Virus record (IMG/VR): IMGVR_UViG_3300022700_000241
Length of the DNA: 64,000 nucleotides
Source of the DNA: an uncultured virus (IMG/VR IMGVR_UViG_3300022700_000241)
Lineage: Duplodnaviria; Heunggongvirae; Uroviricota; Caudoviricetes
Strand: one strand, 5' to 3'
Shown piece after piece: positions 5,285-51,508 of this stretch (positions within the stretch are counted from its first letter, which is position 1; each line of letters opens with the position of its first letter). Below the pieces are notes generated by a model. It was not told where the DNA came from. It saw nothing but the letters and a program-made list of their open reading frames with translations, and did not search any database. The position numbers and the translations under genes were made by a program.

Positions 5285-8200
5285 GTGAGCGAGCAACATT
5301 CCTCTACACAGACGGAGGCCCGCGAGGGCGGCCCTGCGGGACCCCAGCGCCAGAATCCGGATACCTCCGGCCCCAACCCGCTCGGCGAAGAGCGCGCGAT
5401 GGTCGGGAAAACCGGTCGGGATCTGGCAGATGGTGAGTACCCCGGTCTCATTTTGCCGAGCCCCTACTTCGACGTGCTCGGGGAGCCGCGGCCCTGGTTC
5501 AAGATGCTTGTCTACGGGCGCGAGGGCTCTGGGAAGTCCACGTTTGTGACCGGGCTTTGCAAGGCGTACATGCCCTATGCCCGGCACATGGACGCCAAGA
5601 TTCTTTACTGCTCCAGCGAGGAGGGACCGTCCGACACGAGCGCCGACCGCGTACAGCGACTCAACATCCGGGATGACCGGTTCGTGGTCACCTCATTTTC
5701 GACGCTGGAGGAGCTAAAGGAGGTGGTCGAGGACATCGACGCCCAGTTCGTCGTGCTCGACTCCGCAAGCGCCCTCCGAGACCAGAGCGGCGAGGGCGTT
5801 GAGATCATGAAGTTTTGCGAGCGGCAAGGCCGCGCGGTCGCCGTCATTGCCCACCAGAACTCGAAGGGCGAGGCGGCGAAGGCCCGCGACATGCGACACG
5901 AGTGCGGGATCGAGATCCAGTGCGTGCAGGAGCAGATGCCGCCCGGCAAAGCCCGCGCCTGGGGCCTCGACATCAAGGCCCCCGAGCGCCAGGGCGAGGG
6001 TGGGGAGATCATCGTGCATCTCGCCAAGAAAAAAAAGAACCGGTTCGGCGGGCGCGTGAAGGCGGCTCCGGTCCCGATGAAGGAGGATGAGATCCGAGAA
6101 ACCATCCCGGACCGCGTGATTGACCGCCGGGTCCGGAAACTCAAAGCCCACAACCAGTGGCCTATGACTGGCGGTGAGCCGGACCCTGCCACGTCCATTC
6201 GGGATAACCAGAACGGGTATTCCGGCATGGAAGGCGAGAGCCGACACCCCGGCGAGCCCCAGCGCCCGAACACTGCCGAGGACCGAGGCGGCCCGGAGAC
6301 CGGCCAGCCGGAGCCCGCTCCAGGGGATGCCGGTCCCAGTGGAATGGCCACCCCAGATGGCTCCGCCGTGGACCGAGCCGTCGAGTCGCCTGTAAATGGC
6401 CAGCAAGGCCCCGGCTCCCAGAATGGCCCCAGCGGCGGGCCGACACCGCGCCCCAATCGTTCGACCCCGAAAAATCCGACCAGTCTCATGGGATTCCCGA
6501 GCTTCATCCGAACCAACCCGGCCCAGAAGGTCGACCTCGACGAGTTCGAGTCCTTCACGCTCCGCGAGTTGATCGAGAACAACGGCAACGCGGCCCGCTC
6601 GGTCAGCTACCTCAACAAGTTCATCGGATGGGAGAGGGGGTGCGTCGCGGAGGTTTCCAACAACGAGAGCCCCGATTACCGGAGTGAGGAGGGCGGGCTG
6701 CTCGACGAGACCGAGACGCTGGAGACCGAGGACGGGGAGGTCGTCAACGGAAAGCTGCTCTCGTTTACGTACGAGCGCTTTCCGAAGTCAACCGCACGCC
6801 CGGACGCGGTAGCGGTCACCCGGATGTACCTCAATGACAAGCTGGTCGATACGATCTGCGCGGACACCGCGAAGGAGACCATCGAGATCGTCAAGGAGAA
6901 GTACGGGGACCTGGAGATCAAGGTGCTCTCCCAGGAGCATCTCCAGGACGCCTTTGGCGTCGAGGAATTTCGGCGGCTCGCTTCCGAGATCCCCAAGCGC
7001 CAAGACGAAGACAAAGGCACGGTCCCGTCGAACGTCCGCACTGAGGGGTTTGCCTCCAACGAGGTCTCCCCGCGCGGGCATATCAACACCGACATGGGAC
7101 TGGTCGACAAGCGAGTCATCAACCTCGCGAAGGAGGCGGCGAATGGCGAGTTTACCGGAATGGATGACGATGAGGGAGAAGTTCTTTCCGAGGGGGAGCT
7201 TCCCGCCAGCGCCGACCACGGGGTTGAGCTATTCGGCACCGAGTACATTTTCTACGAGACCGATCAGTTTGAACTGGAGGTCTCCACCGGAGACACGTTC
7301 TTCGTTGGCAGCCGGTCGACACGCGGGGACACCTCCCTCGCCGAGAGCCTCATGGGGTTCAACTTCGGCGCCGAAACGAACCTGTCCGGCGAGGAGCCCG
7401 AGCAGGTCGAGGAGGAGGTCCAAGAGGAAGAGGAGGAAGAGCCCGATATGACGGAGGAGGTCGAGGAGGCCGGACCGCCGGACGTGATGGCGCAGGTCCA
7501 AGACCTCATCGATCAGATTCCCGGCGACACGGAAGCGGGCTTCTTCGGCACTCACGAGGAGGAGGAAACCCCGACGATTGATTCTGCCGCGCTGGAGATC
7601 CTCACCGAGATGGCCGGTTCGGTAGACCGGGAGCAGGCCGGAAGCCGCGAGTTGGTCACGTTGGAGATTGCTGGGCTGACCGCCCTGGCCACCGAGTCGG
7701 ACCTTGTATTGGACGCCCCGACCGCCGACGACCCGTTCTACCAGCTTTCCGTGAAGGACAACGACGAGGGTGTCGATGCGGACATGCTCGTTCTCGCGCT
7801 CCAGGACGCCAATCTCATGAGCAACACCGTCGCGCGGGAGGAGGAGGCCGAGGAAGAACCGGAATCAGTCGGTGAAGCCCTTGGCCAGCGCGCCGAGGAG
7901 GCCGCAGGCATCGATGACGACATCGTGCCGGGCGGCTTCGCGCAAACCTCCCAGGGCATGTTTGTCGGGGGCGACGGGCTCGCGATCTTGCAGGAGGTGA
8001 GCGACGATTCTACCCAGTCCTCCGTGACGTTCGAGCTTGCGGGCGAGACGCTTCGCTTCTCGGTCGAACCCGCCCCGACGAAGTTCATCGGCAGCGAGGA
8101 AAACGGCGCGTTCCTGCTTACCGCTTCCTCGGAGGCGGCCCAGGACCTTTCGGTTCGCGGCTTGCTTATGGCCTTCGATGAGAGCGGCGCGATGCGCAGG

Positions 8201-8365
8201 CAAGCCGTTAGCGAGCAGGTCACCGAGCCCGCCGAGGAGGAAGAGGAGCCCGAACCGGCCCCGGAGCCTTCCACACCCGAACCGGAAGAGGAGACGGAGG
8301 CCTCCGCTACCGAACAAGCCACCGAGCAGATTGGGCAGATGATGAGTCAACTTGAGGACCTGTAA
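5285..8365 (+). CDS. RadA/Sms-like RecA-fold ATPase fused to long acidic C-terminal domains
   Basis: Walker A GREGSGKS (5516), LYCSSEE, Walker B FVVLDS, VIAHQN and the RadA-family signature KNRFG (6035-6049). Two RxNP motifs. Start uncertain (GTG 5285 or ATG 5399). Confidence 0.8.
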   Translation: MSEQHSSTQTEAREGGPAGPQRQNPDTSGPNPLGEERAMVGKTGRDLADGEYPGLILPSPYFDVLGEPRPWFKMLVYGREGSGKSTFVTGLCKAYMPYARHMDAKILYCSSEEGPSDTSADRVQRLNIRDDRFVVTSFSTLEELKEVVEDIDAQFVVLDSASALRDQSGEGVEIMKFCERQGRAVAVIAHQNSKGEAAKARDMRHECGIEIQCVQEQMPPGKARAWGLDIKAPERQGEGGEIIVHLAKKKKNRFGGRVKAAPVPMKEDEIRETIPDRVIDRRVRKLKAHNQWPMTGGEPDPATSIRDNQNGYSGMEGESRHPGEPQRPNTAEDRGGPETGQPEPAPGDAGPSGMATPDGSAVDRAVESPVNGQQGPGSQNGPSGGPTPRPNRSTPKNPTSLMGFPSFIRTNPAQKVDLDEFESFTLRELIENNGNAARSVSYLNKFIGWERGCVAEVSNNESPDYRSEEGGLLDETETLETEDGEVVNGKLLSFTYERFPKSTARPDAVAVTRMYLNDKLVDTICADTAKETIEIVKEKYGDLEIKVLSQEHLQDAFGVEEFRRLASEIPKRQDEDKGTVPSNVRTEGFASNEVSPRGHINTDMGLVDKRVINLAKEAANGEFTGMDDDEGEVLSEGELPASADHGVELFGTEYIFYETDQFELEVSTGDTFFVGSRSTRGDTSLAESLMGFNFGAETNLSGEEPEQVEEEVQEEEEEEPDMTEEVEEAGPPDVMAQVQDLIDQIPGDTEAGFFGTHEEEETPTIDSAALEILTEMAGSVDREQAGSRELVTLEIAGLTALATESDLVLDAPTADDPFYQLSVKDNDEGVDADMLVLALQDANLMSNTVAREEEAEEEPESVGEALGQRAEEAAGIDDDIVPGGFAQTSQGMFVGGDGLAILQEVSDDSTQSSVTFELAGETLRFSVEPAPTKFIGSEENGAFLLTASSEAAQDLSVRGLLMAFDESGAMRRQAVSEQVTEPAEEEEEPEPAPEPSTPEPEEETEASATEQATEQIGQMMSQLEDL

Positions 8366-8414
8366 CGCCCGTTGCGCGCAGGTCTGACCCTCACGAGAAA
8401 CGATCTCCGTTCCG

Positions 8415-11400
8415 ATGCTTCCCGACGAAGGAATTATCCGCTGGCTCGACCGGCAGGCCCGTAGCGGCCCGCTCCTCAACCGATCTGGGGACCTGCATGA
8501 ACCCCCGGAGTTTTTGGGCGGGAGCGCCGGGATCGAGAGCGTCGAGCCTCGTGAGAACCCCATCGAGGTGGAGGGGCCAGCCCTAAGCGACGAGGAGTAC
8601 CGCGATTCGGTGCGCGATCTGACCGCTGACATGCGGGACCGGGTACTCTTCATCACGCAAGGAATGGGCGAGGAGGAGCTTGCCGTCTTTGCCCGCAAGG
8701 TCAAGCAGCTTCGGAGCAAGGCACTATCGGGCGATCTCTTCGGGGGCTTTATCCGGCAGAACCCGCCCCTCCCCGGTGCTCGGACGACGGTAACCCGCGA
8801 TTACTCCGAGATGCGGGACAACCCAGCGGACAAAGAGATTTCCAGGCGGTCGTTTCGGGAGTTGGTGCAGGGGGTATTCGACCACCTCAACGACGAACTC
8901 CAGGCCCGAACCGAGGCCCTCTCGAAACGGGAGCGCGGATACGTCGTCGAGAAGCTCAAGCACGCACGAAGCGCCCTTTCTACGCCTCGGATGAACCCCA
9001 ACGGCGAAAGCGAAGGCGACGAAGAGGAGAAGCCGTGGTGGGTTGATGAGGGGCCGGAGAACCCCGACCGATTTGCCTCTCGCAACAAGGCCGAACAGCG
9101 CGGTGTGCTTCTCGGCTGCGGGGAGGAGTTTCACGAGCACGAGGAGGACGGAGAGACGTTCTACATGCCCTGTGCCACCCACCGGGAGTGGAAGAAGAAA
9201 ACCGGGCGGGACAACCCCTCGAAAAACTACCACGAGGCCAAGATCCGGAGCACCGGGGGCGACAAATACGAGACGTACCGGCGCGAGGACAATCCGGACG
9301 GGTTTGAGCGCGGAATCCAGGTTCTCTATGGCATTCGCCCCGAAGAGGAAGAGGGTCCGCGCGGAGGCCGCTCCGAGATCGTAAGCGTCTTCTACCCTTC
9401 CGACGAGTGGAACGCGGCCAACGCGCGCCGACACGCGGAAGCGACCTTCGAGAGCTTCGACAGCTTCGGCGAAGCGACCGGCTCTCGGGAGAACCCCGAG
9501 GCCGAATCTCGCACCGTGGAGCTTCGCGTTGAATATGACCTTGAGGCCGGAAACCGGAGCCACAAAGAGGTCATGAACTGGCTCCGGGAGGCGGTCGGTC
9601 GTCTCGGCGGTGAAATCGTCTGGACCGAGAGCTACGGACCGGCAGGCGCACCTGTATCCATCGAGGTTGGAATTGAAGTGTTTGGCGTGCAGGAGGCGGC
9701 GACCCTACAGCACCGATTCGAGGAGCACATGCGCTCGGAGCTTCCCGGCGTCGCCTCCATCCATACCACCGATGTAGGTGTGGCAGAAAATGTGTCGTCC
9801 GACGCCGATACGGTCGTGACCGTTGACGTGCAATACTCGGCGAGCGAACTCCCCCAGGTCGACCCCGGGGACGCCCCGGAGGACGACCGGTTCTACCACG
9901 ACGCAAAGTCGATGGTCAAAGACACGCTCGGGGGCTGGACGATGGGGGCGAGCGAGCTTGCGACTCCTCGGACGATCCGGTTCGGCTTCCCAACGGCCCA
10001 CGAGGCCATTCGAGCGGAAGCGATTCTCAAAGACGCAACCGACCACTACGAAACGGCCCGCGTCTACCTCTCCTCGATCACCGACGAGACGACCGAAGAG
10101 GAGCCGCTTCGCCTTAACCCGCAGACCTCCCACGCCGGAGGGGATTCCCGGCTGGTCCGCGTCACCGAGCAGAGCGGTGACCTCGGGCAGTTTGAGTCCT
10201 CTCCCCGCGTGCGCGGCATGATCGAGCGCACAGCCGATGCGGCGGGCGGGGAAGTCGTCGGCGTGTCCGAGGCCCCGGGAGGGACCGTGCGCGACGTGTA
10301 CGTTGAGTTCGACAGCCCCACCGGGGCGGAGATGTTCACCAACGAATTGAACACGACGTTCTTCACCCGCGGGCTTTCCGACCGCGCTTTGGCGGTCCAG
10401 GAGTCCCCCTCTCGGCTCGCTGCACGCGAGAACCCAACCAGCGGCGACGGTGCGGTGGCCCGGGTTGGCGTAATCGGTAGCGGTGAGGACATGCCCGACA
10501 TTCTCTCGATGGTCGAGGAGGCCGCCGAGGCGGAAGACGGAGAGATCACCGGCGTGCGGCAGTCCGAAAGTGGCGGCGCAAAGGATTACCTTGTTACCGC
10601 GCCGACGACCGATAAAGCGCGCGCAATCATCAACGACCTCAACAACCGGTTCTCTACGCAGGGAATCGGCGAGGCCGCGACCGCGACGCTCCAGCACGAG
10701 GCCCGTGAGAATCCCCCTGCGGAAATGCGTGTGGGGATTAACATGAACCGAATCGACGAAGATGCTCCCGACGTGCTTTCGATGGTCGAGGAAGCCGCCG
10801 AGGAAAACGGAGGCGAGATTTCTGGCGTTCGCCAGTCGGACGACGGGTCCACGAAAGACTACACGGTGACGGCCCCTACGACAGCGAAGGCTCGGTCGAT
10901 CATCGAAGACTTGAGTAGCGAGTTCACGACGCAAGGAATGGCGTCGGCCACGACCGTCACCCTACAGCACGAGGCCCGGGAGAATCCGCCCGGTCATACA
11001 GTTCGCATTGAGGTCCCGCAGTCGCCGAACGTCTATCCAGAGGGCGTGTCTGCGTCGGATTTGCGCGATAAGATCCTGGACACTGCCGGAGGCATGGGCG
11101 GCTCTGTGCGGCGCTCCTCCGAGGAGGTGATTGAGGTCACCTTCGACAACACCGAAAACGCAATCTCCCTCCAGGAGGCGGTCATCGACGACGCAAACGA
11201 CATGGGCGTCTCCAATGTCTTCGTGGTGCGGAAAAACGCGACCGCGCGCCCGAATCCGGCCTCTACGGTTCTGGTTCGCTATCCCAGCGGCCAGTCGGGA
11301 CTCGACGACACGGTACGAAGCGCCGCCGAGGGCGCGGGTGGACACGTCCGCTCCGTCGGTTCGGCGACGGGCTCGAAGTACAGCGGAATGAAAGAGGCGG

Positions 11401-12149
11401 AGATTCGCTTCAACTCCGAGAGCGAATCGTTCAGCGGCGTTGGTCAGATTGAGTCGTCCCTTCGCTCGGAAGGAGTCGGCGAGTTCGAGGCCCGAACGCT
11501 CGCGGACGAGGACGTGCCGCCGGTTCGCCCGAACCCCATTTTCCCCGGTGAGGGCGAAAGTCTCCTGTCCCTCTCCAGTGAAGAGCCGGAAGGCAGCGAC
11601 GAAAGCGCCCTCGGGCTCCAGGACGAGCCGGAGGGGACTGGCGAATCGGCCTTGAGCATGAAATCGCGTGAGGCCCCTGCCGAGGTCGTATCCACGGCGT
11701 ACCGGCTGGGCAAAGAGGAGGGCGAGGAAGACGGCCTGCCCAACTACAACGACGAGGATGAGGCCTTTCGTCACGCCGTACAGACACTCCCCGGAACCGA
11801 CGCGCTGGAGGGGATCGATACGTCGACGCCCGACGGGCTTCTGGCCTTGGAGGAGGCAGCGTCCGCCTGGGTAAACGGGTACGCCGAGTCGACGGGAAGC
11901 AATTGGCCGCGGCTCAACCCACACGCCGGAGAGGAGAGCGAGCCCGACCCGGACACGGATGCCACTGGCATGGCAGCGCCCTCACACGCACCCGCTCGTG
12001 AGAACCCCGAGGGAAAGAAAGGCGGGCGCGAGGCGTTGTCATACCTCGCAATGACCGCCGCACTTCTCGGCGGCGGCGTCTACCTCGCCGATAGCGTCCT
12101 TACCGAACGCGCCGATAGCGCCCCCGCAACTGCAATCGTCAACGAGTAA
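8415..12149 (+). CDS. 1244-aa modular protein with 14 RxNP motifs, ACT/ferredoxin-like repeats and C-terminal TM anchor
   Basis: 14 RxNP motifs. A Cys/His module GCGEEFHEH..YMPCATH. About 7 related beta-alpha-beta-beta-alpha-beta-like units. TM segment LSYLAMTAALLGGGVYLA. Confidence 0.85.
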   Translation: MLPDEGIIRWLDRQARSGPLLNRSGDLHEPPEFLGGSAGIESVEPRENPIEVEGPALSDEEYRDSVRDLTADMRDRVLFITQGMGEEELAVFARKVKQLRSKALSGDLFGGFIRQNPPLPGARTTVTRDYSEMRDNPADKEISRRSFRELVQGVFDHLNDELQARTEALSKRERGYVVEKLKHARSALSTPRMNPNGESEGDEEEKPWWVDEGPENPDRFASRNKAEQRGVLLGCGEEFHEHEEDGETFYMPCATHREWKKKTGRDNPSKNYHEAKIRSTGGDKYETYRREDNPDGFERGIQVLYGIRPEEEEGPRGGRSEIVSVFYPSDEWNAANARRHAEATFESFDSFGEATGSRENPEAESRTVELRVEYDLEAGNRSHKEVMNWLREAVGRLGGEIVWTESYGPAGAPVSIEVGIEVFGVQEAATLQHRFEEHMRSELPGVASIHTTDVGVAENVSSDADTVVTVDVQYSASELPQVDPGDAPEDDRFYHDAKSMVKDTLGGWTMGASELATPRTIRFGFPTAHEAIRAEAILKDATDHYETARVYLSSITDETTEEEPLRLNPQTSHAGGDSRLVRVTEQSGDLGQFESSPRVRGMIERTADAAGGEVVGVSEAPGGTVRDVYVEFDSPTGAEMFTNELNTTFFTRGLSDRALAVQESPSRLAARENPTSGDGAVARVGVIGSGEDMPDILSMVEEAAEAEDGEITGVRQSESGGAKDYLVTAPTTDKARAIINDLNNRFSTQGIGEAATATLQHEARENPPAEMRVGINMNRIDEDAPDVLSMVEEAAEENGGEISGVRQSDDGSTKDYTVTAPTTAKARSIIEDLSSEFTTQGMASATTVTLQHEARENPPGHTVRIEVPQSPNVYPEGVSASDLRDKILDTAGGMGGSVRRSSEEVIEVTFDNTENAISLQEAVIDDANDMGVSNVFVVRKNATARPNPASTVLVRYPSGQSGLDDTVRSAAEGAGGHVRSVGSATGSKYSGMKEAEIRFNSESESFSGVGQIESSLRSEGVGEFEARTLADEDVPPVRPNPIFPGEGESLLSLSSEEPEGSDESALGLQDEPEGTGESALSMKSREAPAEVVSTAYRLGKEEGEEDGLPNYNDEDEAFRHAVQTLPGTDALEGIDTSTPDGLLALEEAASAWVNGYAESTGSNWPRLNPHAGEESEPDPDTDATGMAAPSHAPARENPEGKKGGREALSYLAMTAALLGGGVYLADSVLTERADSAPATAIVNE
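10425..10988 (+). repeat. Tandem duplication of a ~92-aa RxNP-bounded module
   Basis: Units 10425-10703 and 10704-10976 share PD(I/V)LSMVEEAAE..GEI(T/S)GVRQS..G..KDY.VTAPTT.KAR.II.DL...F.TQG...TLQHEARENPP. Confidence 0.9.
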
Positions 12150-12158
12150 CTCAACCCC

Positions 12159-13082
12159 ATGACCCCGACCGCCCCGCTTTCCAAAACTGGTACGTCCAAC
12201 GGGCTCGGCCAATCCCGACAGTCCGGGCTTGGCTTCACCGACAACATCGAGGCCGCCTTCGAGCAGTCAACCAACGGCAAGGTGCGGGCGAAGATTGTCC
12301 CGAACCGAATCATCGACGTGCCCTTCTACGCGGAGGTGACCGTGCCGACGTACGGCGGAACCAACATCGACAACAAGCAGACTTTCCTGGAGGCGGACCT
12401 CACGAGGACGGCCCTGGAGATGCTTATGGAGGACACCGGCCTCAAAGAGATCGAGGTGCTCGGCCCCGCGCAGACGAATGGGCCACCGACGGACGGAGGG
12501 AACGGCGAGCAGAAACAGGCGGGATTCTTCGAGCAGAACTGGCCGTGGGTTCTCGGTGGAGGTGCCGTGGTTTTGGTCGGCGCGCAGCTACTTGCGCGTA
12601 GCGGTCGACGGCAGATGGCCCAAAAGGCAGAGCAGGTGCAGGGCAGCCGCGCCAACCCAGACGGACCGGTCGATGAGGCTGTTGAGACGCTCCAGGAAGG
12701 CATCGAGGAAGCGTCCGCCGAGACGGCAGAGGCGGTCGAAACTGGTGAGGAGACCATCGAGGACCTGGAGGAGGAGACCGAAGAGGCCCTCCCGGAGTCG
12801 CTTGAGGATCGGGGCAATCCCTCCGACTCGAACAATTCGGCGGACTACTGGATTGCCCGAGCGACGGTAGACCAAGATGAGATGGATCGGGGGAACGTCC
12901 ACCGCACGTCGATGGCCGCCAACATCGCGTCCCTCGATATGGAGGATCAGCGTCGCATCGCGTCGAACCTTGCGGTCGCCCCGGGCGGTAAGGTAACCGT
13001 ATGGAAGAACACCGCCGACGGACTCAAGCAGAAGAAGACCTTCACCTGGAACCCTGACAGCGGGTTCTCTCCGACAAGCTAA
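12159..13082 (+). CDS. Membrane protein (GLG leader, central TM helix, two RxNP motifs)
   Basis: NGLGQSRQSGLGF leader; QAGFF..WPWVLGGGAVVLVGAQLL TM segment; RANP and RGNP motifs. Confidence 0.8.
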   Translation: MTPTAPLSKTGTSNGLGQSRQSGLGFTDNIEAAFEQSTNGKVRAKIVPNRIIDVPFYAEVTVPTYGGTNIDNKQTFLEADLTRTALEMLMEDTGLKEIEVLGPAQTNGPPTDGGNGEQKQAGFFEQNWPWVLGGGAVVLVGAQLLARSGRRQMAQKAEQVQGSRANPDGPVDEAVETLQEGIEEASAETAEAVETGEETIEDLEEETEEALPESLEDRGNPSDSNNSADYWIARATVDQDEMDRGNVHRTSMAANIASLDMEDQRRIASNLAVAPGGKVTVWKNTADGLKQKKTFTWNPDSGFSPTS

Positions 13083-13814: not shown

Positions 13815-13826
13815 CACCTCTGCCCT

Positions 13827-16133: not shown

Positions 16134-16925
16134 ATGCCAGGAACTATGGGAAACTCTGCGCCGGGCTCCAGAACCAACCCCGCAGAGAAAACGACCCCTT
16201 CGTCCAACGGCTCCGATAACGGGTCCGTCTCGTCTTCGTCCCCCACTGTACCGAAAGCCGGAATGGGACAGCCGGAAGAAGAGAAGGAAAGCGGACCGGC
16301 GCCCAGCGTCATCCGTCGGGCGCAGCTACCGGCCCCCTCCGAGATCGACGACGAGGAGGTTTACATGGCCACCTTCCGCAGCGGGAATACCGTTCCACTG
16401 ACGGGTCGAGAACTAAAAGAGACGCTCACGACGGACCGCCCGCCCGGAATGTCCCTCGGTCAAAACGGCACCGATACCTCGACAAACGGATCCGGGGACG
16501 GTGGCTCCGGGGACGAGCGTAAATGGTGGCACGACGTGCTTTTGGGCATCGGTCGGATCGGCGGCATCTTTCTTCGCGACCGCCTTGGCGACGGCCAGGA
16601 GCTTAGCCAGGAGGAGCGAGAGGCGCTCCGCGAGATTGCCCAGCGGCGGCGCGAGGAGCGCCTTCGCCGACAACGGCGCAACCGGTGGCTTATGATCGGA
16701 GGCGTCGTCGTGATCGGAGGGCTCGGGCTCTGGCTCGCGACACGCTCGTCTTCGGCCCCGGCCCCGCCCCCACCGCCGCCCCCTGAACCGGATGAACCCG
16801 AACCGCAGGAGCCGGAAGAGGTGGAGATCACCGATCCCGAACGGGAGAATGCCGAGCAGGAGGGCTCCGCGGAAAGTGAGGGCGACGGACCTCAAGCACA
16901 AGGCACCACCACGGACAACGAGTAA
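16134..16925 (+). CDS. Membrane protein with Arg-rich juxtamembrane segment and poly-Pro tail
   Basis: RTNP, GMGQ and SLGQNG motifs; RRREERLRRQRRNR followed by TM segment WLMIGGVVVIGGLGLWL. Confidence 0.75.
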   Translation: MPGTMGNSAPGSRTNPAEKTTPSSNGSDNGSVSSSSPTVPKAGMGQPEEEKESGPAPSVIRRAQLPAPSEIDDEEVYMATFRSGNTVPLTGRELKETLTTDRPPGMSLGQNGTDTSTNGSGDGGSGDERKWWHDVLLGIGRIGGIFLRDRLGDGQELSQEEREALREIAQRRREERLRRQRRNRWLMIGGVVVIGGLGLWLATRSSSAPAPPPPPPPEPDEPEPQEPEEVEITDPERENAEQEGSAESEGDGPQAQGTTTDNE

Positions 16926-17590: not shown

Positions 17591-17642
17591 CGCCACGATT
17601 AGCACTCCTCACGAGTCTTTCCACTTACAACCGGCTCTCGCT

Positions 17643-41113: not shown

Positions 41114-42016
41114 ATGCGCGTCCTTGGCCGCAATCCGGCGCCGGAGCAGCTTCGATCTGTTGAAGTTGACCCGGACGCGCTCGACGGAGCCGAGGTTGAA
41201 CCGCCGAACAGCGGGCAAGGCCCCACTCGGCAAAATCCCGGCTCTCCGGACGGAATGGCCGAAGGGTCCCTCAAAGAGCGCATCATCGGATCTGGCGGTC
41301 CCGACACTGCTGGATCCGACAACGGGTCCCCCCAAGACGGCACGAGCGATACTTCTCAAAAAAGCAGGTCGAATCCAACCTCCCTCTCGGAGGTGGCGGA
41401 CGAGACCAACGACACACAGATGTCTGACTCCCAGTCCCGCGAAAACCCCGACGCCGTAACCGACGTGGATGCCCAGATCCAGAACGCCGCGCAGGTCTTC
41501 TTGCCTGCCCTGGCGGTTGAGACGGGCTCCCGCGCCTCCACCCTCATTACGGGTGGCGTCGCGACCTCCAACATGGTCGGCACGGGCACCTTCCAGAAGG
41601 TTGTGGAGGTTGGCCTGCCGGTCGTCCTCGGAATCGCGACCTTCATGATCGGCGAGAGGATGGACAATGTTTATGTCAAACAGAGCGCGGTCGGTATGGC
41701 GATCCCCGCCGCCGACGCTCTGCTGAACCCGATCCTCAACCCGGTCGAGTCCGCCCTTACCGGCCAGCCCGCCTCTGGCGGTGGCGGAAATGGAGGTGGC
41801 GGGAACGGCCAGCAGGGAATGGCTCGCGCTGGCATGGGCTACGGGGAGTTCCTCACCGAGAACCGCATGAGCGGTATGGGCGCCAACAGTGGCGTCCCGG
41901 CCAACCGGCAGCTTTCCGGTGGCGGCGAGGACGGCATGGGCATTGACAAGTCCACCGACCTCGTGGAAGAAAGTGAGGAGGGCAGCCGCTTCGCCAAGGT
42001 CGCGATGGACGAGTAA
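41114..42016 (+). CDS. Candidate major internal-membrane protein (3 RxNP motifs in N-terminal part, several GMG motifs)
   Basis: RQNP, RSNP and RENP precede a hydrophobic core. C-terminus paralogous to 17643-18101. First gene of the terminator-bounded capsid-like operon. An internal start at 41420 is possible. Confidence 0.7.
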   Translation: MRVLGRNPAPEQLRSVEVDPDALDGAEVEPPNSGQGPTRQNPGSPDGMAEGSLKERIIGSGGPDTAGSDNGSPQDGTSDTSQKSRSNPTSLSEVADETNDTQMSDSQSRENPDAVTDVDAQIQNAAQVFLPALAVETGSRASTLITGGVATSNMVGTGTFQKVVEVGLPVVLGIATFMIGERMDNVYVKQSAVGMAIPAADALLNPILNPVESALTGQPASGGGGNGGGGNGQQGMARAGMGYGEFLTENRMSGMGANSGVPANRQLSGGGEDGMGIDKSTDLVEESEEGSRFAKVAMDE

Positions 42017-42117: not shown

Positions 42118-42702
42118 ATGCCTCTCGTCAAAGAGATCAGCGAAGAAGAGCTTGAGAGCATCGCCGAGCTTTACGATGTTCGCCAGTTCTACTCGGGCAC
42201 CACGACGCTTCGGTTCTTTGCGCCGAACCCGTCGGGGACCGTGCTGGACAACAACTACAACAGCAACCCCCTGCCCGGGCAGACGCCCTACGACCTGCTG
42301 AGCCTCGGGCTCGAACTTGGCCCGACGCCGCTGGTCGAGGAGACGGGCCAGAACATCGATCCGCTGGCGATTGCCAACACGTTCCTCTCCGGGATCGTCG
42401 AACTCCAGGTCGACGGCGGGAAGGAGCAGGCCTTCGTGCATCCGATCAGCGATTACGTCGACACCGAAAACTTCGACTGGGACGAGACCTCCAACACCCT
42501 GTCCATCGGGTCCAAGCAGCTTGCGAAGATCATGGACCCCTTCCTGGTGCGGCGCAATCGCCAGTTCGACCTCACGCTCCGGTGGCAGGACACCTCGGCG
42601 CTGCCGAGTCAGTCCGACTGGAGCGGGGCGAGCAACCAGCACGCCTCGGACCTCAAGATTGCCGCGACCATGCAGGTCAACGACTACGGCGATAATTTCT
42701 AA
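42118..42702 (+). CDS. Candidate single jelly-roll major capsid protein 1
   Basis: 194 aa, beta-strand-rich, no TM segment, strongly C/G-ending codons. Paralogous to the next gene (YD.R.F..L..F.PNP..NYN.NPLPG..Y..N.DP.AI..QFD.T). The CDS is secure; the capsid role is inferred. Confidence 0.55.
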   Translation: MPLVKEISEEELESIAELYDVRQFYSGTTTLRFFAPNPSGTVLDNNYNSNPLPGQTPYDLLSLGLELGPTPLVEETGQNIDPLAIANTFLSGIVELQVDGGKEQAFVHPISDYVDTENFDWDETSNTLSIGSKQLAKIMDPFLVRRNRQFDLTLRWQDTSALPSQSDWSGASNQHASDLKIAATMQVNDYGDNF

Positions 42703-42819
42703 GTCGTCCGGGGCCGCGCCCCGCACGTGCTCTCAAGTCCTCCGAGCGGGCGGGCACACTCCCGCCCCGGGGGCAGAAAGTTTCTTGCTTGACACTCCAA
42801 AAGACGCTCGCTCGACACT

Positions 42820-43449
42820 ATGTCCCGCCTTAAAAAGTCTCCCGCGCTGGAAGGCGTAAACCTCGACGCGGAACTGGACCTGTACTACGACCGGCGCCCG
42901 TTCGAGGACGCCAACGCGGACGATGAGCTTACGCTCTTCCCGCCGAACCCGCAGAACTCGGATCTGGTGAGCAACTACAACCAGAACCCGCTGCCGGGCA
43001 CCGAGGAGTACCGCATCATCGCCGCCCGAGTGCGCCCGACGTTCATGCTGCTCCGCGAGGACAGCGGCAACAACGTCGACCCCGAGGCCATCGGCGCGCA
43101 ACTCAAAGACGCGGTGCTCACGATCCGCGACCGCGGCGGCCAGAACCGTGTGGTCCAGAACCGGCTGCCCAGCCACTTCGACACGAACGACTTCGTGGTC
43201 AAACGCTTCCGGGACAACCGGGGCACCGGCGACGAGTCGGACACGTCGTACCTCTTCTACGGAGGATTCGAGATTGCCTCGCTGCCGGAGTGGTTCACTC
43301 TGAGCGCCACGCAGCAGTTCGACTTCACGGTCAAGTTCCCCGACTCCTCGGTCTTCCCGACGCAGAGCGAGATCGAGTCGAGTGGCCAGGGGATCCAGAG
43401 CCACCCGTTCGGCCTCGAAGCCGTCTTCCAGTACGCGACGCTCAACTAA
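42820..43449 (+). CDS. Candidate single jelly-roll major capsid protein 2
   Basis: 209-aa paralog of 42118-42702; followed by a structured region and a strong terminator. Confidence 0.55.
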   Translation: MSRLKKSPALEGVNLDAELDLYYDRRPFEDANADDELTLFPPNPQNSDLVSNYNQNPLPGTEEYRIIAARVRPTFMLLREDSGNNVDPEAIGAQLKDAVLTIRDRGGQNRVVQNRLPSHFDTNDFVVKRFRDNRGTGDESDTSYLFYGGFEIASLPEWFTLSATQQFDFTVKFPDSSVFPTQSEIESSGQGIQSHPFGLEAVFQYATLN

Positions 43450-43654
43450 GCGGGTCTCCCCGCTTGGGGCCTTTGGCCTGCCTCGTCGCTGGCTCGGAGC
43501 ATTCTCCGATGCGACATTGCGCGGTCCGGGCGCGCTTCGGCCAAGGCCCCTGCCATACAGGCGGAATGGAGGCCCCGTGTCGATCCGCCTCGCGCCTCCG
43601 TACTGACAGGCCCGCCCACGCTCGCCTGTTCGCCCTTCGTGGCGCGCGACCTGC

Positions 43655-43694
43655 AAGCAGCCTCCTACCGACCCGTGTAGGAGGCTGCTTTTTT
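43655..43694 (+). terminator. Rho-independent terminator closing the capsid-like operon
   Basis: Perfect 14-bp stem AAGCAGCCTCCTAC/GTAGGAGGCTGCTT running into a T tract. Confidence 0.85.
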
Positions 43695-43803
43695 ACTGCG
43701 CCCCCATCATTGCTTGATGGTGGAGAGAAGAGAGCAGGCGCCGAACTCACATCGAGCCCGCACGTTCGGCCCACGATCCTTCCTCGAACCACTCTTGACC
43801 GCC

Positions 43804-44583
43804 ATGCCCCGAGTTTTCGACGACTTTCCGCCGACCGAGGAGTTTTTCCAGCCGAGTCAGACGGTTGAGGTCGCGTCCAACGACAGCGAGACCGTCCAGC
43901 TTACCGGTCGCGGCGACCGCCCTCTCGGCTTCGCTCGCATGTTCGTTCACTCCGATGGAGACCCGACCGACATTCTGCTGACGGCAGAGCCGTCCGCCGG
44001 TGGGTTTACCTTCTTCGAGAACGTGCAAGCGGGCGCGATCCAGGATCTCTTCCGGCACCGCCAACTCCAGGCGCCCCTGGTCCTCGATGAGAGCCGAAAC
44101 CTGGACGTGACCATCGAGAACCTCGACGGGGCAAACGCCCGCGAGGTAACCGTGGAGCTTTCGGCGCTGCCGCAACCGGTGCTGGAGAAGCGTTTGTCAG
44201 CGGTTCGCGAGGAGTTTGGCGCGCGGCTCGTTCCGGTCTTCCTCTACGTGACCGGCACCGTGGGGGCCGGGGCAACTGACCGGCAGGATCTTCTCTCCTA
44301 CCGGACCGAAACGGAGCTTCTGCGCTTCGCGGTCGAGGCGGACGCCCCGGTGGTCGACGACCTCAAGTTCGACATCCGGCTCCCCCGGGAGACTCCGATT
44401 CGCGACAAGCGGAAGCGAACGGTGCTCGATCAGTTCATTAGCGGGGAGCTTCCGGTGCCCCTCGAAATCAACACGCGCAAGGAGGCGAAGCTGGTAGCCG
44501 ACAATACGACCGGTACCCAGCAGGCGCGGTACACCTTCCTCGGGGAGTGCTACTCGCTTCCGGGTGGCCCACTTATCGGGTAA
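43804..44583 (+). CDS. Two-domain beta protein (tandem jelly-roll-like halves; candidate minor capsid/vertex protein)
   Basis: The halves end similarly: LQAPLVLDESRNLDVTIENL..VTVEL vs LPVPLEINTRKEAKLVADNT..YTFLG. Start at ATG 43804. Confidence 0.5.
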   Translation: MPRVFDDFPPTEEFFQPSQTVEVASNDSETVQLTGRGDRPLGFARMFVHSDGDPTDILLTAEPSAGGFTFFENVQAGAIQDLFRHRQLQAPLVLDESRNLDVTIENLDGANAREVTVELSALPQPVLEKRLSAVREEFGARLVPVFLYVTGTVGAGATDRQDLLSYRTETELLRFAVEADAPVVDDLKFDIRLPRETPIRDKRKRTVLDQFISGELPVPLEINTRKEAKLVADNTTGTQQARYTFLGECYSLPGGPLIG

Positions 44584-45060: not shown

Positions 45061-45097
45061 CCCTCTCGCTCGAACTGCCTACAGTTGACTACAGATT

Positions 45098-45751: not shown

Positions 45752-45765
45752 GTACCTACACCCTT

Positions 45766-46524: not shown

Positions 46525-46569
46525 AGCGCCTCCCCATCGCCCCGCCCCTCGAACATCATCCCAAACGCC

Positions 46570-46995
46570 ATGCACCGACGAGTCAACCCGCCCGCCCACG
46601 AGTGGCAGACGAATGGCCAGTCGAATGGACAATTCTATGGCCTCGGCCAGACCCTCCGCGAGCGCATTCGCCAGGGCAATCTCCCGGACTCAATCCAGGA
46701 GATTATCGGTCCCATCGAGGAGAAGGACATTGACCTCGTGATCGACATTCTGGAAACGCTCAAGGGTGAGGGCACCCGCTTCGAGGACCTCACGCCCGCC
46801 GAGAAGCGCGCCTTCGCGCAGGCCTACCTGGAGCGGACCGGCCAGCGCCGGTCTGGTCTTGGGGGCGGGGTATTCGTGCTCGGTGCGCTCGCCGTCGTTG
46901 GCGGGATGGTCTGGTGGCAAAGCACGCGGGGGCGAGAGATGGAGCCTCCACCGCGCCCGCCCGGTCGTAAAGGCGAGGACGACGAAGACGAATAG
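46570..46995 (+). CDS. Membrane protein (RVNP plus GLGQ leader)
   Basis: MHRRVNP..FYGLGQ; TM segment VFVLGALAVVGGMVWW. Confidence 0.75.
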   Translation: MHRRVNPPAHEWQTNGQSNGQFYGLGQTLRERIRQGNLPDSIQEIIGPIEEKDIDLVIDILETLKGEGTRFEDLTPAEKRAFAQAYLERTGQRRSGLGGGVFVLGALAVVGGMVWWQSTRGREMEPPPRPPGRKGEDDEDE

Positions 46996-47043
46996 AACTT
47001 CCCTTTCTTCGATACGTCACGCTCCAATCACGACCCGAAGCCG

Positions 47044-47334: not shown

Positions 47335-47361
47335 CTCTCCTACCACCAAGGCGATAGCACC

Positions 47362-47703: not shown

Positions 47704-47716
47704 GCCACAGGGGCCG

Positions 47717-49104: not shown

Positions 49105-49106
49105 CC

Positions 49107-49856
49107 ATGTCGGTACTCAATCAGTTCTTTCGGGGCATGGGCACGAGCGTGGGCCGTGCAGTCGGCTACCTCGTGGTTGGGGTCCTGCTGATCGGGGGCG
49201 GCTATGCGCTCTATCGCGCCTGGACGCCTGGGCCGGAGACCACCCCAAGTGAGGTCCCCGAGGTGGCGCCGGGACTTCCGCCCATCTTCGACGAGTCGAC
49301 CATTGTGCGCCCAGATTCGTCGGGCGATTGGATTATTGAGGAGGTGCCCGGGGACTTTGACGCCACGCTCACGATTGACCTTCCTGCCGACTCAAACGAT
49401 CTTGCAGGTGGGGGCTACGTGTCTATCGGCTTGCGGGAGGGGGCAGAGCAGTTTTTCCCCGAATTACCCGGACAGCGGAAGCTGCCTCTGGAAGCGGAGG
49501 TGATCGGCCCCTATGAAACCGATAGGGTGCGGATCAAGGCACAACCCCAGCCGATTATTGACTTTGACCTCCAGGCGGAAATTGGCCTGTCCGTGTTTGC
49601 TTCCAGCGCCGAGGTCGGAGGCATCGTCGGAGTGACCGGCGGTCGTCTGTTTGGGGTACGGCTTGGCGGGTTTGCCGCCGCGGCCCCGCGGCCTACCGGC
49701 GAGAGCTTGGGCGTAGTCTTCGGTGCCGGTCCCTACGCGAGCCTTCGCGTGTACGGCCCATTCGGGGTCGGTGTCGGCAAAGACGTTCTTAGCGCTCCGC
49801 TCGCCAACCTGGAAGGACTCACGTTCACGATTACGGCGGACCTTCCGCTCCCATAA
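49107..49856 (+). CDS. N-terminal TM protein with C-terminal amphipathic beta strands (possible spanin-like protein)
   Basis: TM segment VGYLVVGVLLIGGGYAL; Gly-rich alternating strands at the C-terminus. Start at ATG 49107. Confidence 0.6.
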   Translation: MSVLNQFFRGMGTSVGRAVGYLVVGVLLIGGGYALYRAWTPGPETTPSEVPEVAPGLPPIFDESTIVRPDSSGDWIIEEVPGDFDATLTIDLPADSNDLAGGGYVSIGLREGAEQFFPELPGQRKLPLEAEVIGPYETDRVRIKAQPQPIIDFDLQAEIGLSVFASSAEVGGIVGVTGGRLFGVRLGGFAAAAPRPTGESLGVVFGAGPYASLRVYGPFGVGVGKDVLSAPLANLEGLTFTITADLPLP

Positions 49857-49885
49857 CAAGACGCTCAAAAAGACTCCTCGACGCC

Positions 49886-50608: not shown

Positions 50609-50629
50609 CCCCGCAGACCCCGCCCTGTC

Positions 50630-51508
50630 ATGAATCGTTACCCGAAAGCTCGCCCCAACCCGAACGTCCTGGCACGCGGACGACCGCCCCAAGACGGCAT
50701 GGCCGGGCCGACGGCCCCAACGTCCGGACGTGCTCGGACGAATCCATCCCCCCAGGCTGGCCTTTCCGGCCAAACCGGGCTCGGTGCTCCAATCAAGCAA
50801 ACGGGGTCGATGACCCTCAAGGTGACCGGCGCGTCGTTCCCGTCGCCGGGGCGCGTTCTGGTGGACATGGAGGCAGACACCTCGCCGACGATCACGACTG
50901 CGTGCTGGTCGTTCTACGCGGCCCTGGTTGGGTATCCCGGTCAGGTGCTTATCGACACGTACTTAGAGCCGATTACCTACGGGACCTGCTACCACCGGTG
51001 GCAGTTTTCCGGAGAGATGCCCCAGGGGGTCCAGGAGGCAGAAGTGTGGATCTGGTGGGCCGATGACATTCGGGGGTGGTTCGAGGCGCCTCCGGCGTTT
51101 GAGCAAGGCGTCGGCACGGAGGACCTTACGAGCCCGCCGCCTGCCTTTCGCTCCGACCGGTTCCCGCTCCTCAATACGCAAGAGGGCCGTGACCGGGGCA
51201 TCTACGAGGAGAAGACCGAACCGACGATTGATGCAGTCGGAGACTTCGGGGCGGAGTTCGGAAGCGCCCTCAAGGACACGCTCATTACCGCTGCCCTCAT
51301 CGCCGGTGGTGGCGCACTTCTCTGGTACGGCGCCCCGGTGATTACTGCCGCTTCCGAGCAGGCCGCCGAATCGATCCGGGAGGACTCCGATGAGGCGGGC
51401 GGTGACGATGAACAAGAAGCTCTCCCCGAGCCCGACGACTCCCGCGAGAACCCCGGCGAAAAGAAACCGCCCTCCGCAGAGAAGATTCTATCGGAGAACA
51501 GAAGCTAA
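50630..51508 (+). CDS. Membrane-anchored protein carrying both RxNP (3 copies) and GLG leader motifs
   Basis: RPNP, RTNP, GLSGQTGLGA, a beta domain, TM segment LITAALIAGGGALLWY, then RENP. Confidence 0.75.
   Translation: MNRYPKARPNPNVLARGRPPQDGMAGPTAPTSGRARTNPSPQAGLSGQTGLGAPIKQTGSMTLKVTGASFPSPGRVLVDMEADTSPTITTACWSFYAALVGYPGQVLIDTYLEPITYGTCYHRWQFSGEMPQGVQEAEVWIWWADDIRGWFEAPPAFEQGVGTEDLTSPPPAFRSDRFPLLNTQEGRDRGIYEEKTEPTIDAVGDFGAEFGSALKDTLITAALIAGGGALLWYGAPVITAASEQAAESIREDSDEAGGDDEQEALPEPDDSRENPGEKKPPSAEKILSENRS

What the first reader, a model, noticed from the sequence alone, without database searches (positions are those of the whole stretch)
5348..51454. Genome-wide R-x-N-P motif punctuates virion-block proteins at domain boundaries: candidate polyprotein-processing or cargo-sorting system
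Seen: 43 RxNP copies counted by eye in 9 plus-strand proteins (1026 aa: 2; 1244 aa: 14; 307 aa: 2; 263 aa: 1; 2140 aa: 8; 3952 aa: 9; 300 aa: 3; 141 aa: 1; 292 aa: 3). RENP is the commonest form. I found none in DnaB, the capsid candidates or the minus-strand genes. Codons vary freely (cgt gag aac ccc; cgc gaa aat ccg; cgg cag aac ccg), so selection acts on the peptide, not the DNA. The motifs sit in linkers between recognisable domains. Assuming roughly R 7%, N 3% and P 6%, only about 2 copies would be expected by chance in this block. Inference: RxNP is a recognition site used either by a viral protease to cut giant precursors into separate effectors, or by a packaging factor to load cargo into the virion. 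I know of no described system using this motif, but could not search the literature.
Basis: partly seen in the sequence, partly recalled or inferred. Interest (0 to 1): 0.93.

Follow-up and report, generated by a model that had tools for sequence, protein, structure and literature searches.

The report
Arg-x-Asn-Pro seams in viral proteins
A large uncultured relative of a salt-lake, membrane-lined, tailless phage marks the joints and ends of its giant multi-enzyme proteins and several membrane proteins with a conserved four-residue tag (Arg-x-Asn-Pro), most likely a cutting site, though no cutting has been shown.

Summary
There are 43 R-x-N-P copies in the nine named plus-strand proteins against 2.3 expected. 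It is the strongest three-residue pattern in the block (19-fold, Poisson 3e-39; the next non-repetitive pattern is about 5-fold). Codon use matches the background. R, N and P are kept at aligned positions in relatives of two proteins down to about 41% identity, while x and the flanks drift. In an AlphaFold2 model of the 1244-aa protein, 13 of 14 motifs lie in low-confidence joints between small folded domains. In relatives, an extra RelA/SpoT module enters the 2140-aa protein flanked by RxNP. [quoted passage not shown] Best reading (0.45): a protease recognition seam that turns the modular proteins into polyproteins. Rivals are a docking tag, Asn-Pro self-cleavage and a structural turn. The enzyme is unknown. 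The neighbouring transglutaminase-fold cysteine enzyme is only a candidate. Nothing shows cutting. This scan noted the same motif earlier on related DNA.

The parts
8415..12149 (+). 1244-aa tail-anchored modular protein with 14 RxNP (aa 46, 114, 134, 192, 265, 358, 566, 671, 764, 855, 945, 1038, 1166, 1195). It has N-terminal helices, a Cys/His-rich small domain, about seven tandem beta-alpha-beta-beta-alpha-beta domains, and a C-terminal membrane helix at aa 1207-1229.
19788..26210 (+). 2140-aa polyvalent protein (ART-PolyVal at aa 699-813, weak GNAT match) with 8 RxNP at module seams (aa 171, 633, 961, 972, 1131, 1496, 1775, 1950).
26304..38162 (+). 3952-aa DarB-like polyvalent protein (ART-PolyVal, methyltransferase-like region, SNF2 helicase carrying an intein). 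Its 9 RxNP form three clusters: after the ART domain (aa 324-408), in the helicase hinge (aa 2675-2719), and before the C-terminal domain shared with SSIP-1 gp43 (aa 3756, 3783).
5285..8365 (+). 1026-aa protein whose N-terminal ATPase matches SSIP-1 gp40. RxNP at aa 22 and 409.
12159..13082 (+). 307-aa membrane protein with RxNP at aa 164 and 218, after the membrane helix at aa 128-149.
16134..16925 (+). 263-aa membrane protein with RTNP at aa 13.
41114..42016 (+). 300-aa membrane protein with RxNP at aa 39, 85 and 109 in its N-terminal low-complexity arm.
46570..46995 (+). 141-aa tail-anchored protein with RVNP at aa 4.
50630..51508 (+). 292-aa membrane protein with RxNP at aa 8, 36 and 272. 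It has a weak match to SSIP-1 ORF 35.
3631..4809 (+). Transglutaminase-fold cysteine enzyme with invariant Cys-His-Asp, a long low-complexity linker and a C-terminal membrane helix. It is homologous to SSIP-1 structural protein gp34. It is a candidate protease only, and carries no RxNP itself.
42118..44583 (+). Three capsid candidates without RxNP: 194-aa and 209-aa paralogues (jelly-roll, matching SSIP-1 gp45 and gp46) and a 289-aa protein (matching SSIP-1 gp47).

Best explanation
R-x-N-P is a short recognition site for site-specific proteolysis. It marks where modular virion and cargo proteins of this SSIP-1-like membrane-containing phage are cut: between modules of the giant polyvalent proteins, between the tandem small domains of the 1244-aa protein, just before a membrane anchor, and after short N-terminal leaders of small membrane proteins. 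Shown here: the enrichment, its conservation, its position in joints and at ends, and the module-cassette behaviour. Inferred: that the site is cut, which bond is cut, and by what. The enzyme is unknown. The membrane-tethered transglutaminase-fold cysteine enzyme at 3631-4809 is the only protease-like candidate visible in the window, and about half of the roughly 136-kb genome could not be read.
For: Enrichment: 43 copies against 2.3 expected, the top pattern by far. The signal is in the peptide, not the DNA. Conservation: R, N and P are invariant at aligned seams in 8 aligned homologues of the 1244-aa protein, while x and the flanks vary. The 11 homologues carry 5-14 copies each against 0.14-0.25 expected. 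The 6 homologues of the 2140-aa protein carry 5-10 against 0.18-0.34 expected, with most sites aligned. Placement: 13 of 14 motifs of the 1244-aa protein fall in pLDDT<50 segments that cover 282 of 1200 residues (binomial 7e-8), and by my reading of the model 12 of 13 inter-domain joints carry a motif. Flanks are poor in bulky hydrophobic residues (0.187 against 0.266, Mann-Whitney 2.6e-8). Modularity: in relatives P0015 and P0016 a RelA/SpoT module sits in different places in the 2140-aa protein, each time bounded by RxNP. One motif per joint fits separators better than a single address tag. Cross-lineage conservation: 'RENP + about 10 residues + membrane helix' ends both this 1244-aa protein and SSIP-1 gp41, and RENP precedes the C-terminal domain shared by SSIP-1 gp43 and the 3952-aa protein. 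Candidate enzyme: a conserved Cys-His-Asp enzyme is encoded next to the substrates. For three relatives the longest-contig sizes listed for its homologues and for the 1244-aa homologues coincide (127,878, 25,472 and 52,936 bp). Precedent: Iyer et al. 2017 (PMC5512222, passages read) predict that polyvalent proteins are processed by peptidases.
Against: No cleavage product, proteome or N-terminal sequence was available. The SSIP-1 paper (PMC3344969) is not held. No protease is tied to the motif, and the complex prediction of the enzyme core with a two-motif linker gave no verdict. From general protease knowledge, Pro next to the scissile bond is disfavoured by most endopeptidases. Three motifs lie in the hinge between the two helicase lobes of the 3952-aa protein, where a cut would split an enzyme. 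Motifs at residues 4, 8 and 13 of small proteins, and at residue 2 of SSIP-1 gp41, would release only tiny peptides, which fits a tag as well as a cut. Residues 410-2674 of the 3952-aa protein have several domains and no motif. SSIP-1 has the enzyme homologue but only 5 RxNP (1.45 expected, P=0.016). Earlier notes of this scan tie that enzyme family to a Gly-hydrophobic-Gly tag.
Confidence: 0.45

Rival explanations
1. Docking or packaging tag. RxNP is a short linear motif bound by a virion component (coat underside, membrane protein or packaging factor). It recruits membrane proteins and giant cargo proteins into the particle without being cut, and many copies give avidity.
For: The motifs lie in exposed, flexible, acidic segments, as linear motifs typically do. 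They occur at extreme N-termini (aa 4, 8, 13; SSIP-1 gp41 aa 2) and in C-terminal tails. They occur in an enzyme hinge where a cut seems harmful. They cluster in twos to fours with 7-27-residue spacers. They are absent from coat candidates and replication genes. The giant SSIP-1 homologue gp43 is annotated as a structural protein.
Against: One tag per protein would suffice, yet almost every joint of the 1244-aa protein carries one, including joints only about 7 residues long between two beta-strands. Inserted modules bring their own flanking motifs. No binding partner was identified.
Confidence: 0.25
2. Asn-Pro self-cleavage. The Asn side chain attacks its own peptide bond (asparagine-lyase chemistry), so the seams break without a protease, perhaps triggered by assembly or environment.
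For: The Asn-Pro pair is strictly kept, and R.N with another residue is not enriched. Asn-Pro is the scissile bond in RsgI and in the reovirus mu1 and aquareovirus VP5 coat proteins, and the P98A and P95A mutants show no cleaved fragment in RsgI (PMC10328401, passages read). No dedicated protease was found for the motif.
Against: In RsgI the Asn-Pro sits in a defined turn between two beta-strands of a folded domain. Here it lies in low-confidence, variable linkers with only Arg at -2 conserved. From recall, uncatalysed Asn-Pro cleavage in peptides takes weeks to months.
Confidence: 0.08
3. Structural linker cap. Asn-Pro forms a turn that ends one module and starts the next, and Arg pairs with the acidic surroundings. 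There is no recognition by another protein.
For: The motif sits 2-4 residues after the last strand of one domain and 3-12 residues before the first strand of the next. Earlier notes of this scan read related Arg/Asn-Pro units as turn-capped segments (unchecked).
Against: A turn does not explain invariance of three spaced residues in otherwise drifting disordered linkers. It does not explain motifs at residues 2-8 of proteins or in tails. It does not explain the restriction to a subset of proteins.
Confidence: 0.08
4. Modification site. Arg or Asn of the motif is the target of an enzyme carried by the same proteins, for example Arg ADP-ribosylation by the ART-PolyVal domains.
For: Both giant proteins carry ART-PolyVal domains. 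From recall, the packaged T4 Alt enzyme modifies Arg residues.
Against: No test was possible. The motif also marks proteins and relatives with no visible link to the ART domain. A fixed Pro is not a known ART determinant (recall).
Confidence: 0.04

Closest known systems
Polyvalent proteins of phages and conjugative elements (Iyer, Burroughs, Anand, de Souza, Aravind 2017, PMC5512222; passages read)
   Same: These are giant multi-domain proteins with ART-PolyVal, methyltransferase and SNF2-helicase (DarB-like) modules that travel with the DNA. Processing by peptidases is predicted.
   Different: That work proposes embedded zincin, assemblin-like or LonC peptidases. The terms 'linker', 'transglutaminase' and 'papain' do not occur in its text, and the passages read name no junction motif. 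No embedded peptidase family was detected here.
[quoted passage not shown]
   Same: Eleven BLASTP rows link nine window proteins to nine SSIP-1 proteins, in the same gene order from gp34 to gp48 (the ORF 35 match, E 0.002, lies out of order). The SSIP-1 proteins are gp34, gp40, gp43, gp44, gp45, gp46, gp47, gp48 and ORF 35. SSIP-1 carries RENP before the anchor of gp41 and before the C-terminal domain of gp43.
   Different: The window's own protein is recorded on a contig of 135,993 bp, about three times the size of SSIP-1. Here there are 43 motifs against 5 in SSIP-1, and much larger polyvalent proteins.
Prohead-protease cleavage motifs of tailed phages (T4 gp21; SPN3US gp245: PMC5694885 and PMC10052503, search listing and abstract starts only)
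   Same: A short motif shared by many head and ejection proteins, at N-terminal leaders and inside large proteins, cut by one phage protease.
   Different: The virus type differs (jelly-roll, membrane-containing). No such protease family was detected in the window. The motif differs. The T4 and SPN3US motifs themselves are recalled, not read.
Core and polyprotein processing by cysteine proteases in eukaryotic jelly-roll viruses (adenovirus protease, ASFV pS273R, poxvirus I7; recalled)
   Same: These are jelly-roll capsid viruses with internal membrane or core proteins trimmed at short Gly-containing motifs. ASFV makes structural polyproteins.
   Different: The protease fold differs (Ulp1-like) and the motifs differ. 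Nothing here was tested against them.
Asn-Pro autoproteolysis: RsgI anti-sigma factors and reovirus mu1 / aquareovirus VP5 (PMC10328401, passages read); FlhB/YscU NPTH (recalled)
   Same: An Asn-Pro pair is the conserved core, and Pro is required.
   Different: Those sites are single and lie in folded contexts. Here there are dozens of sites in flexible linkers.
LapG-type bacterial transglutaminase-like cysteine proteinases (recalled; lead from earlier notes)
   Same: A transglutaminase-fold Cys-His-Asp enzyme acting as a site-specific protease on a large repeat protein.
   Different: From recall, LapG cuts at a di-alanine site in the periplasm. The substrate of the enzyme here is unknown.

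Membership tests
Polyvalent proteins (Iyer et al. 2017) | A large protein of a phage or mobile element combining several conflict-related enzyme domains, such as ART-PolyVal, methyltransferase and SNF2 helicase | tested here: met
   ART-PolyVal PF18760 scores 44.1 bits (cut-off 31.2) in the 2140-aa protein. The 3952-aa protein has a weaker ART-PolyVal match, DarB-like phrog_10089 at 1.7e-106, phrog_11801 at 7e-125, and Helicase_C and SNF2 matches.
Polyvalent proteins (Iyer et al. 2017) | An embedded peptidase (zincin MPTase in about 36% of members) | tested here: inconclusive
   No peptidase family appeared in Pfam scans of the whole proteins or of 18 inter-motif segments. Divergent domains could be missed.
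SSIP-1-like tailless membrane-containing phages | Homologues of SSIP-1 structural proteins in conserved order | tested here: met
   BLASTP of 32 window proteins against the 57 SSIP-1 proteins gave 11 rows with E from 2e-18 to 2e-3, covering gp34, gp40, gp43 to gp48 and ORF 35. tblastn of the enzyme against 50,697 phage records hit only the two SSIP-1 records.
SSIP-1-like tailless membrane-containing phages | Two small vertical jelly-roll coat proteins | tested here: inconclusive
   The AF2 model of the 209-aa protein (pLDDT 90.3) is a beta-sandwich. The best solved matches are jelly-rolls, including HHIV-2, SPV1, HCIV-1 and P23-77 VP16/VP17, but only at Z 5.0-6.7, below the tool's caution line of 8. 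The best viral model match is a 211-aa protein, I1ZBH9, at E 8e-11 and TM 0.75. A 194-aa paralogue lies next to it.
SSIP-1-like tailless membrane-containing phages | Internal membrane with many virus-encoded membrane proteins | tested here: inconclusive
   A simple hydropathy scan gives a hydrophobic helix in 27 of 40 plus-strand ORFs, 26 without the transglutaminase-fold enzyme's core-domain stretch, and most of them are C-terminal. A membrane in the particle itself cannot be shown from sequence.
Asparagine peptide lyases (Asn-Pro self-cleaving sites) | Asn at the scissile bond followed by Pro | tested here: met
   All 43 sites have Asn-Pro by definition of the motif, and R.N with another residue is not enriched.
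Asparagine peptide lyases (Asn-Pro self-cleaving sites) | A folded context that positions the Asn (a turn between beta-strands in RsgI; PMC10328401) | tested here: not met
   13 of 14 sites in the modelled protein lie in pLDDT<50 linkers, and the flanks are variable.
Asparagine peptide lyases (Asn-Pro self-cleaving sites) | Demonstrated self-cleavage | not testable with these tools
   This needs protein chemistry.
Transglutaminase-like cysteine proteinases (ORF 3631-4809) | Transglut_core domain with the Cys-His-Asp triad | tested here: met
   PF01841 scores 40.8 bits against a cut-off of 23. C112, H145 and D164 are invariant in 14 aligned homologues down to 26% identity.
Transglutaminase-like cysteine proteinases (ORF 3631-4809) | Acts on RxNP | tested here: inconclusive
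   The complex prediction gave no verdict. There is no other evidence.
2A-like ribosome-skipping peptides (NPGP) | Gly-Pro directly after Asn-Pro | tested here: not met
   Gly follows Asn-Pro in only 4 of 43 sites. Ser (8), Pro (7) and Ala (6) are commoner.
Prohead-protease maturation systems of tailed phages | A prohead protease gene (T4 gp21, HK97 or assemblin type) in the head module | tested here: inconclusive
   No such family appeared among 34 + 25 ORFs scanned with Pfam and PHROGs. More than half of the genome was not available.

The most novel reading that the evidence does not exclude
RxNP is the cut-here code of a polyprotein system in a lineage of large, membrane-containing, jelly-roll phages. 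Giant virion-delivered proteins would be strings of plug-in effector modules released at Asn-Pro seams, either by a dedicated enzyme or by Asn-driven self-cleavage. That would be the first proteolytic maturation or polyprotein system in prokaryotic jelly-roll viruses, paralleling adenovirus, ASFV and poxviruses.
Probability: 0.35. Interest if true: 0.85.

Novelty: new variant of a known kind. Interest (0 to 1): 0.7.

Why it matters
It has been predicted, but not located, that polyvalent proteins are cut into separate effectors. A conserved four-residue seam gives exact positions to test. The motif also occurs in a cultured phage, SSIP-1 (gp41, gp43), so virion mass spectrometry could settle the question directly. 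If the seams are cut, tailless membrane-containing phages would have a maturation step so far known, to my recall, only in their eukaryotic jelly-roll relatives and in tailed phages. The seams would also explain how effector modules are swapped between viruses. If they are docking tags instead, they would be a cargo-loading code for a membrane-lined capsid.

Tried and rejected
- Whole-genome search was impossible because no genome is held for the window.
- No relatives of the 1244-aa protein were found in 50,697 phage records, 72,556 plasmid records or the GTDB genome collection.
- IMG/VR and the metagenome collection gave one true fragmentary relative (L014). Otherwise they gave only tailed-phage contigs sharing a roughly 50-residue Cys/His-rich domain. 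Those contigs show no RxNP system.
- The complex prediction of the enzyme core (aa 20-215) with a two-motif linker (aa 104-146 of the 1244-aa protein) scored 0.00. The tool's verdict is 'no answer', so it is neither support nor evidence against.
- phmmer of the enzyme against PDB sequences gave 0 matches.
- Foldseek of the 1200-residue model returned only generic tandem beta-alpha-beta-beta-alpha-beta folds (RRM, ACT, AcrB subdomains) with no functional lead.
- A literature search for 'RxNP' returned 9 papers, all unrelated.
- A search for 'Asn-Pro' + autocleavage + virus returned 3 papers, of which RsgI was useful.
- The SSIP-1 description (Aalto et al. 2012, PMC3344969) is not held. Its N-terminal sequencing data, if any bear on gp41 or gp43, could not be seen.
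- A DNA-level origin was rejected because codons follow background usage.
- A 2A-like skip was rejected because NPGP is not kept.
- A GC3 filter for gene calling did not discriminate frames.
- A G[LMI]G motif over whole proteins is not significant: 33 against 19.7 expected, with a shuffle maximum of 39.

Full report
**Observation.**
There are 43 R-x-N-P in nine proteins, the first at 5348 and the last ending at 51454.
- Composition predicts 2.3 copies. In 2000 shuffles per protein, none reached the observed count for the 1244-, 2140-, 3952-, 300- and 292-aa proteins.
- R.NP is the most enriched a.bc pattern: 18.8-fold, against 3.9-fold for the next. It also ranks first over six pattern shapes, at Poisson 2.8e-39.
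- In raw six-frame translation, only the two frames that hold these genes exceed expectation (38 and 13 copies).
- Codons for R, N and P mirror the block's usage.
- R.N followed by any residue other than Pro is not enriched (30 against about 33.7 expected).
- Flank preferences are weak: Ala or Ser before Arg, and Ser, Pro or Ala after Pro.
- None occurs in DnaB, the coat candidates or 22 minus-strand ORFs, where only about 0.5 was expected.

**Conservation.**
- The 1244-aa protein has 11 relatives in the large protein collection, with best local identities of 41-75% and query coverage falling from 100% to 8%. They carry 5-14 RxNP each against 0.14-0.25 expected.
- In an 8-sequence alignment, R, N and P are invariant at eight seams and partly kept at the others, while x changes freely (E, D, Q, G, S, T and others) and the flanks drift.
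- Pro is occasionally replaced by Ala or Gln.
- Six relatives of the 2140-aa protein (51-71% identity) carry 5-10 copies against 0.18-0.34 expected, most at aligned sites.

**Position.**
- An AlphaFold2 model of residues 1-1200 of the 1244-aa protein was built from 12 sequences (mean pLDDT 66.6). It shows N-terminal helices, a small Cys/His-rich domain and about seven tandem beta-alpha-beta-beta-alpha-beta domains.
- 13 of 14 motifs fall in pLDDT<50 segments, which make up 282 of 1200 residues (binomial 7e-8). Two of those segments are exactly the motif (764-767 and 855-859).
- By my reading of the model, 12 of 13 inter-domain joints carry a motif. The joint near 457-464 does not.
- Across all nine proteins, the 24 flanking residues hold fewer bulky hydrophobics than average (0.187 against 0.266, P 2.6e-8).
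- In relatives P0015 and P0016, a RelA/SpoT module (PF04607) is inserted at different places in the 2140-aa protein. Each insertion is bounded by RxNP, and module order differs.
- The 3952-aa protein does not fit 'every boundary'. Its nine motifs form three clusters: after the ART domain, in the hinge between the SNF2 and Helicase_C lobes, and before the C-terminal domain. Residues 410-2674 have none.
- Seven motifs lie within the first 50 residues of a protein and two within the last 50.

**What the element is.**
- The giants are polyvalent proteins (ART-PolyVal; DarB-like methyltransferase plus helicase with an intein).
- A simple hydropathy scan gives a hydrophobic helix in 27 of 40 plus-strand ORFs. 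One of these counts only if the stretch in the transglutaminase-fold enzyme's core domain is dropped from its two, which leaves 26. Most helices are C-terminal. The three giants have none.
- Following a lead from earlier notes of this scan, I tested kinship with Salisaeta icosahedral phage 1.
  - The transglutaminase-fold enzyme hits only SSIP-1 gp34 among 50,697 phage records.
  - BLASTP links nine window proteins to SSIP-1 gp34, gp40, gp43, gp44, gp45, gp46, gp47, gp48 and ORF 35. The gp34-gp48 matches lie in the same order in both genomes; the ORF 35 match (E 0.002) does not.
  - The record annotates the gp proteins as structural.
- The 209-aa protein models as a beta-sandwich (pLDDT 90.3). 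Its best viral match is a 211-aa model (E 8e-11, TM 0.75). Jelly-roll coat proteins (HHIV-2, SPV1, HCIV-1, P23-77) are among the best solved matches, but only at Z 5.0-6.7, which is suggestive and not decisive.
- ESM Atlas neighbours of the 209- and 289-aa proteins are viral clusters and jelly-roll families (leads only).
- SSIP-1 is described as a T=49, 44-kb, internal-membrane phage with two coat protein types (PMC6260650, PMC6356626, PMC4958249; passages read).
- The window's own protein is recorded on a 135,993-bp contig. This would therefore be a much larger relative.
- The 'virion block' label is thus supported.

**The motif in SSIP-1.**
- SSIP-1 has 5 RxNP against 1.45 expected (P 0.016).
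- Two of them mirror this window. gp41 ends 'RENP + about 10 residues + membrane helix', like the 1244-aa protein. RENP precedes the gp43 C-terminal domain that aligns with the end of the 3952-aa protein, which has RVNP and RSNP just upstream.
- gp41 also starts M-RENP.

**Mechanism.**
- The motif is regular, with about one per joint, and it travels with inserted modules. It sits just before a membrane anchor and after short N-terminal leaders. These features fit a protease recognition site best. That reading also matches the predicted processing of polyvalent proteins (PMC5512222, passages).
- Several points count against it:
  - the helicase-hinge cluster;
  - motifs so close to the N-terminus that a cut removes only a few residues;
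  - the general reluctance of endopeptidases to accept Pro beside the scissile bond (knowledge, not a call);
  - the lack of any identified enzyme.
- The neighbouring Cys-His-Asp enzyme is conserved. The triad is invariant in 14 homologues, and the closest homologues are 83% identical. For three relatives, the longest-contig sizes listed for its homologues coincide with those listed for the 1244-aa homologues.
- However, the complex prediction gave no verdict. SSIP-1 has the enzyme with few motifs. Earlier notes of this scan connect this enzyme family to a Gly-hydrophobic-Gly tag. I also see that tag near the N-termini of 8 of 33 proteins here (mean 2.8 in shuffles; 10 of 2000 shuffles reach 8).
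- A docking tag explains the terminal and hinge sites better, but not the one-per-joint regularity.
- Asn-Pro self-cleavage has real precedents (RsgI; reovirus mu1 and aquareovirus VP5; PMC10328401, passages). In RsgI the site sits in a turn between beta-strands, unlike the flexible linkers here.

**Novelty.**
- No paper uses 'RxNP' in this sense. The polyvalent-protein paper does not contain the words 'linker', 'transglutaminase' or 'papain'.
- This scan has noted the same or related Arg/Asn-Pro seams before on other DNA: e1-5345282, e1-5275858, e1-5988266, e1-6024466 and others. Those are unchecked notes.
  - the full count and statistics for this window;
  - the structural placement;
  - the RelA/SpoT cassette evidence;
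  - the tested SSIP-1 kinship, with motif positions conserved in a cultured phage.
- I rate it a new variant of a known kind, namely a punctuation or processing motif of viral multi-domain proteins. Cutting is unproven.

Noticed in passing
window 3631-51508, plus strand (e.g. 13113-13814, 13827-14525, 14567-15142, 18155-18700, 18719-19690, 39734-40351, 45098-45751): A hydropathy scan finds a hydrophobic helix in 27 of 40 plus-strand ORFs, most of them C-terminal. Many share the same tail format: a Gly/Asn/Ser-rich spacer, a Gly/Ala-rich helix, and a short Ser-rich end with no basic cluster.
   Followed up: partly
window ORFs 4866-5261 (aa 14), 12159-13082 (aa 15, 23), 14567-15142 (aa 14), 16134-16925 (aa 43), 16934-17590 (aa 24), 46570-46995 (aa 24), 49068-49856 (aa 8, 23), 50630-51508 (aa 50): A second short tag, Gly-Leu/Met/Ile-Gly (often GLGQ), lies near the N-termini of small membrane proteins. 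It occurs in the first 55 aa of 8 of 33 proteins, against a shuffle mean of 2.8 (10 of 2000 shuffles reach 8). Over whole proteins it is not significant. SSIP-1 proteins show it too, and earlier notes of this scan link it to the transglutaminase-fold enzyme.
   Followed up: partly
window about 31896-33011 (aa 1865-2236 of the 3952-aa protein): An intein (Hint plus LAGLIDADG homing-endonuclease domains) is inserted in the SNF2 helicase module.
   Followed up: no
window 13176-13340 (aa 22-76 of ORF 13113-13814): A type I dockerin domain (PF00404, 61.7 bits) sits in a small tail-anchored virion-block protein.
   Followed up: no
window about 9060-9224 (aa 216-270 of the 1244-aa protein); loci L001-L030: A roughly 50-residue Cys/His-rich domain (PWWV...C..H.H...MPC..H) is shared with 580-640-aa ORFs of low-GC marine tailed-phage contigs. 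In several of those contigs a portal-like ORF lies close by.
   Followed up: partly
relatives P0015 and P0016 of ORF 19788-26210: Relatives carry an extra RelA/SpoT (PF04607) nucleotide-pyrophosphokinase module in the polyvalent protein, at different positions.
   Followed up: partly
whole window; The window's own protein is recorded on a contig of 135,993 bp. SSIP-1 is 44 kb, and Yutin et al. 2018 (PMC5894146, passages) give 7-18 kb for prokaryotic double-jelly-roll viruses. This would be an unusually large tailless membrane-containing phage.
   Followed up: partly
window 17550-18101 and 41114-42016, C-termini: Two otherwise different membrane proteins end in the same acidic tail, 'GMGID.ST.L.EE....A.V.MD'. 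The first also matches SSIP-1 gp44 weakly.
   Followed up: no
window 52312-63509, minus strand: This is a separate, lower-GC, opposite-strand block with a ParB-like protein, a primase-like protein and a serine invertase/resolvase. It has no RxNP.
   Followed up: no
window 47672-48802: A 376-aa protein with an N-terminal membrane helix and a weak endolysin match (phrog_21825, E 6e-4). It is possibly the lysis or entry enzyme.
   Followed up: no
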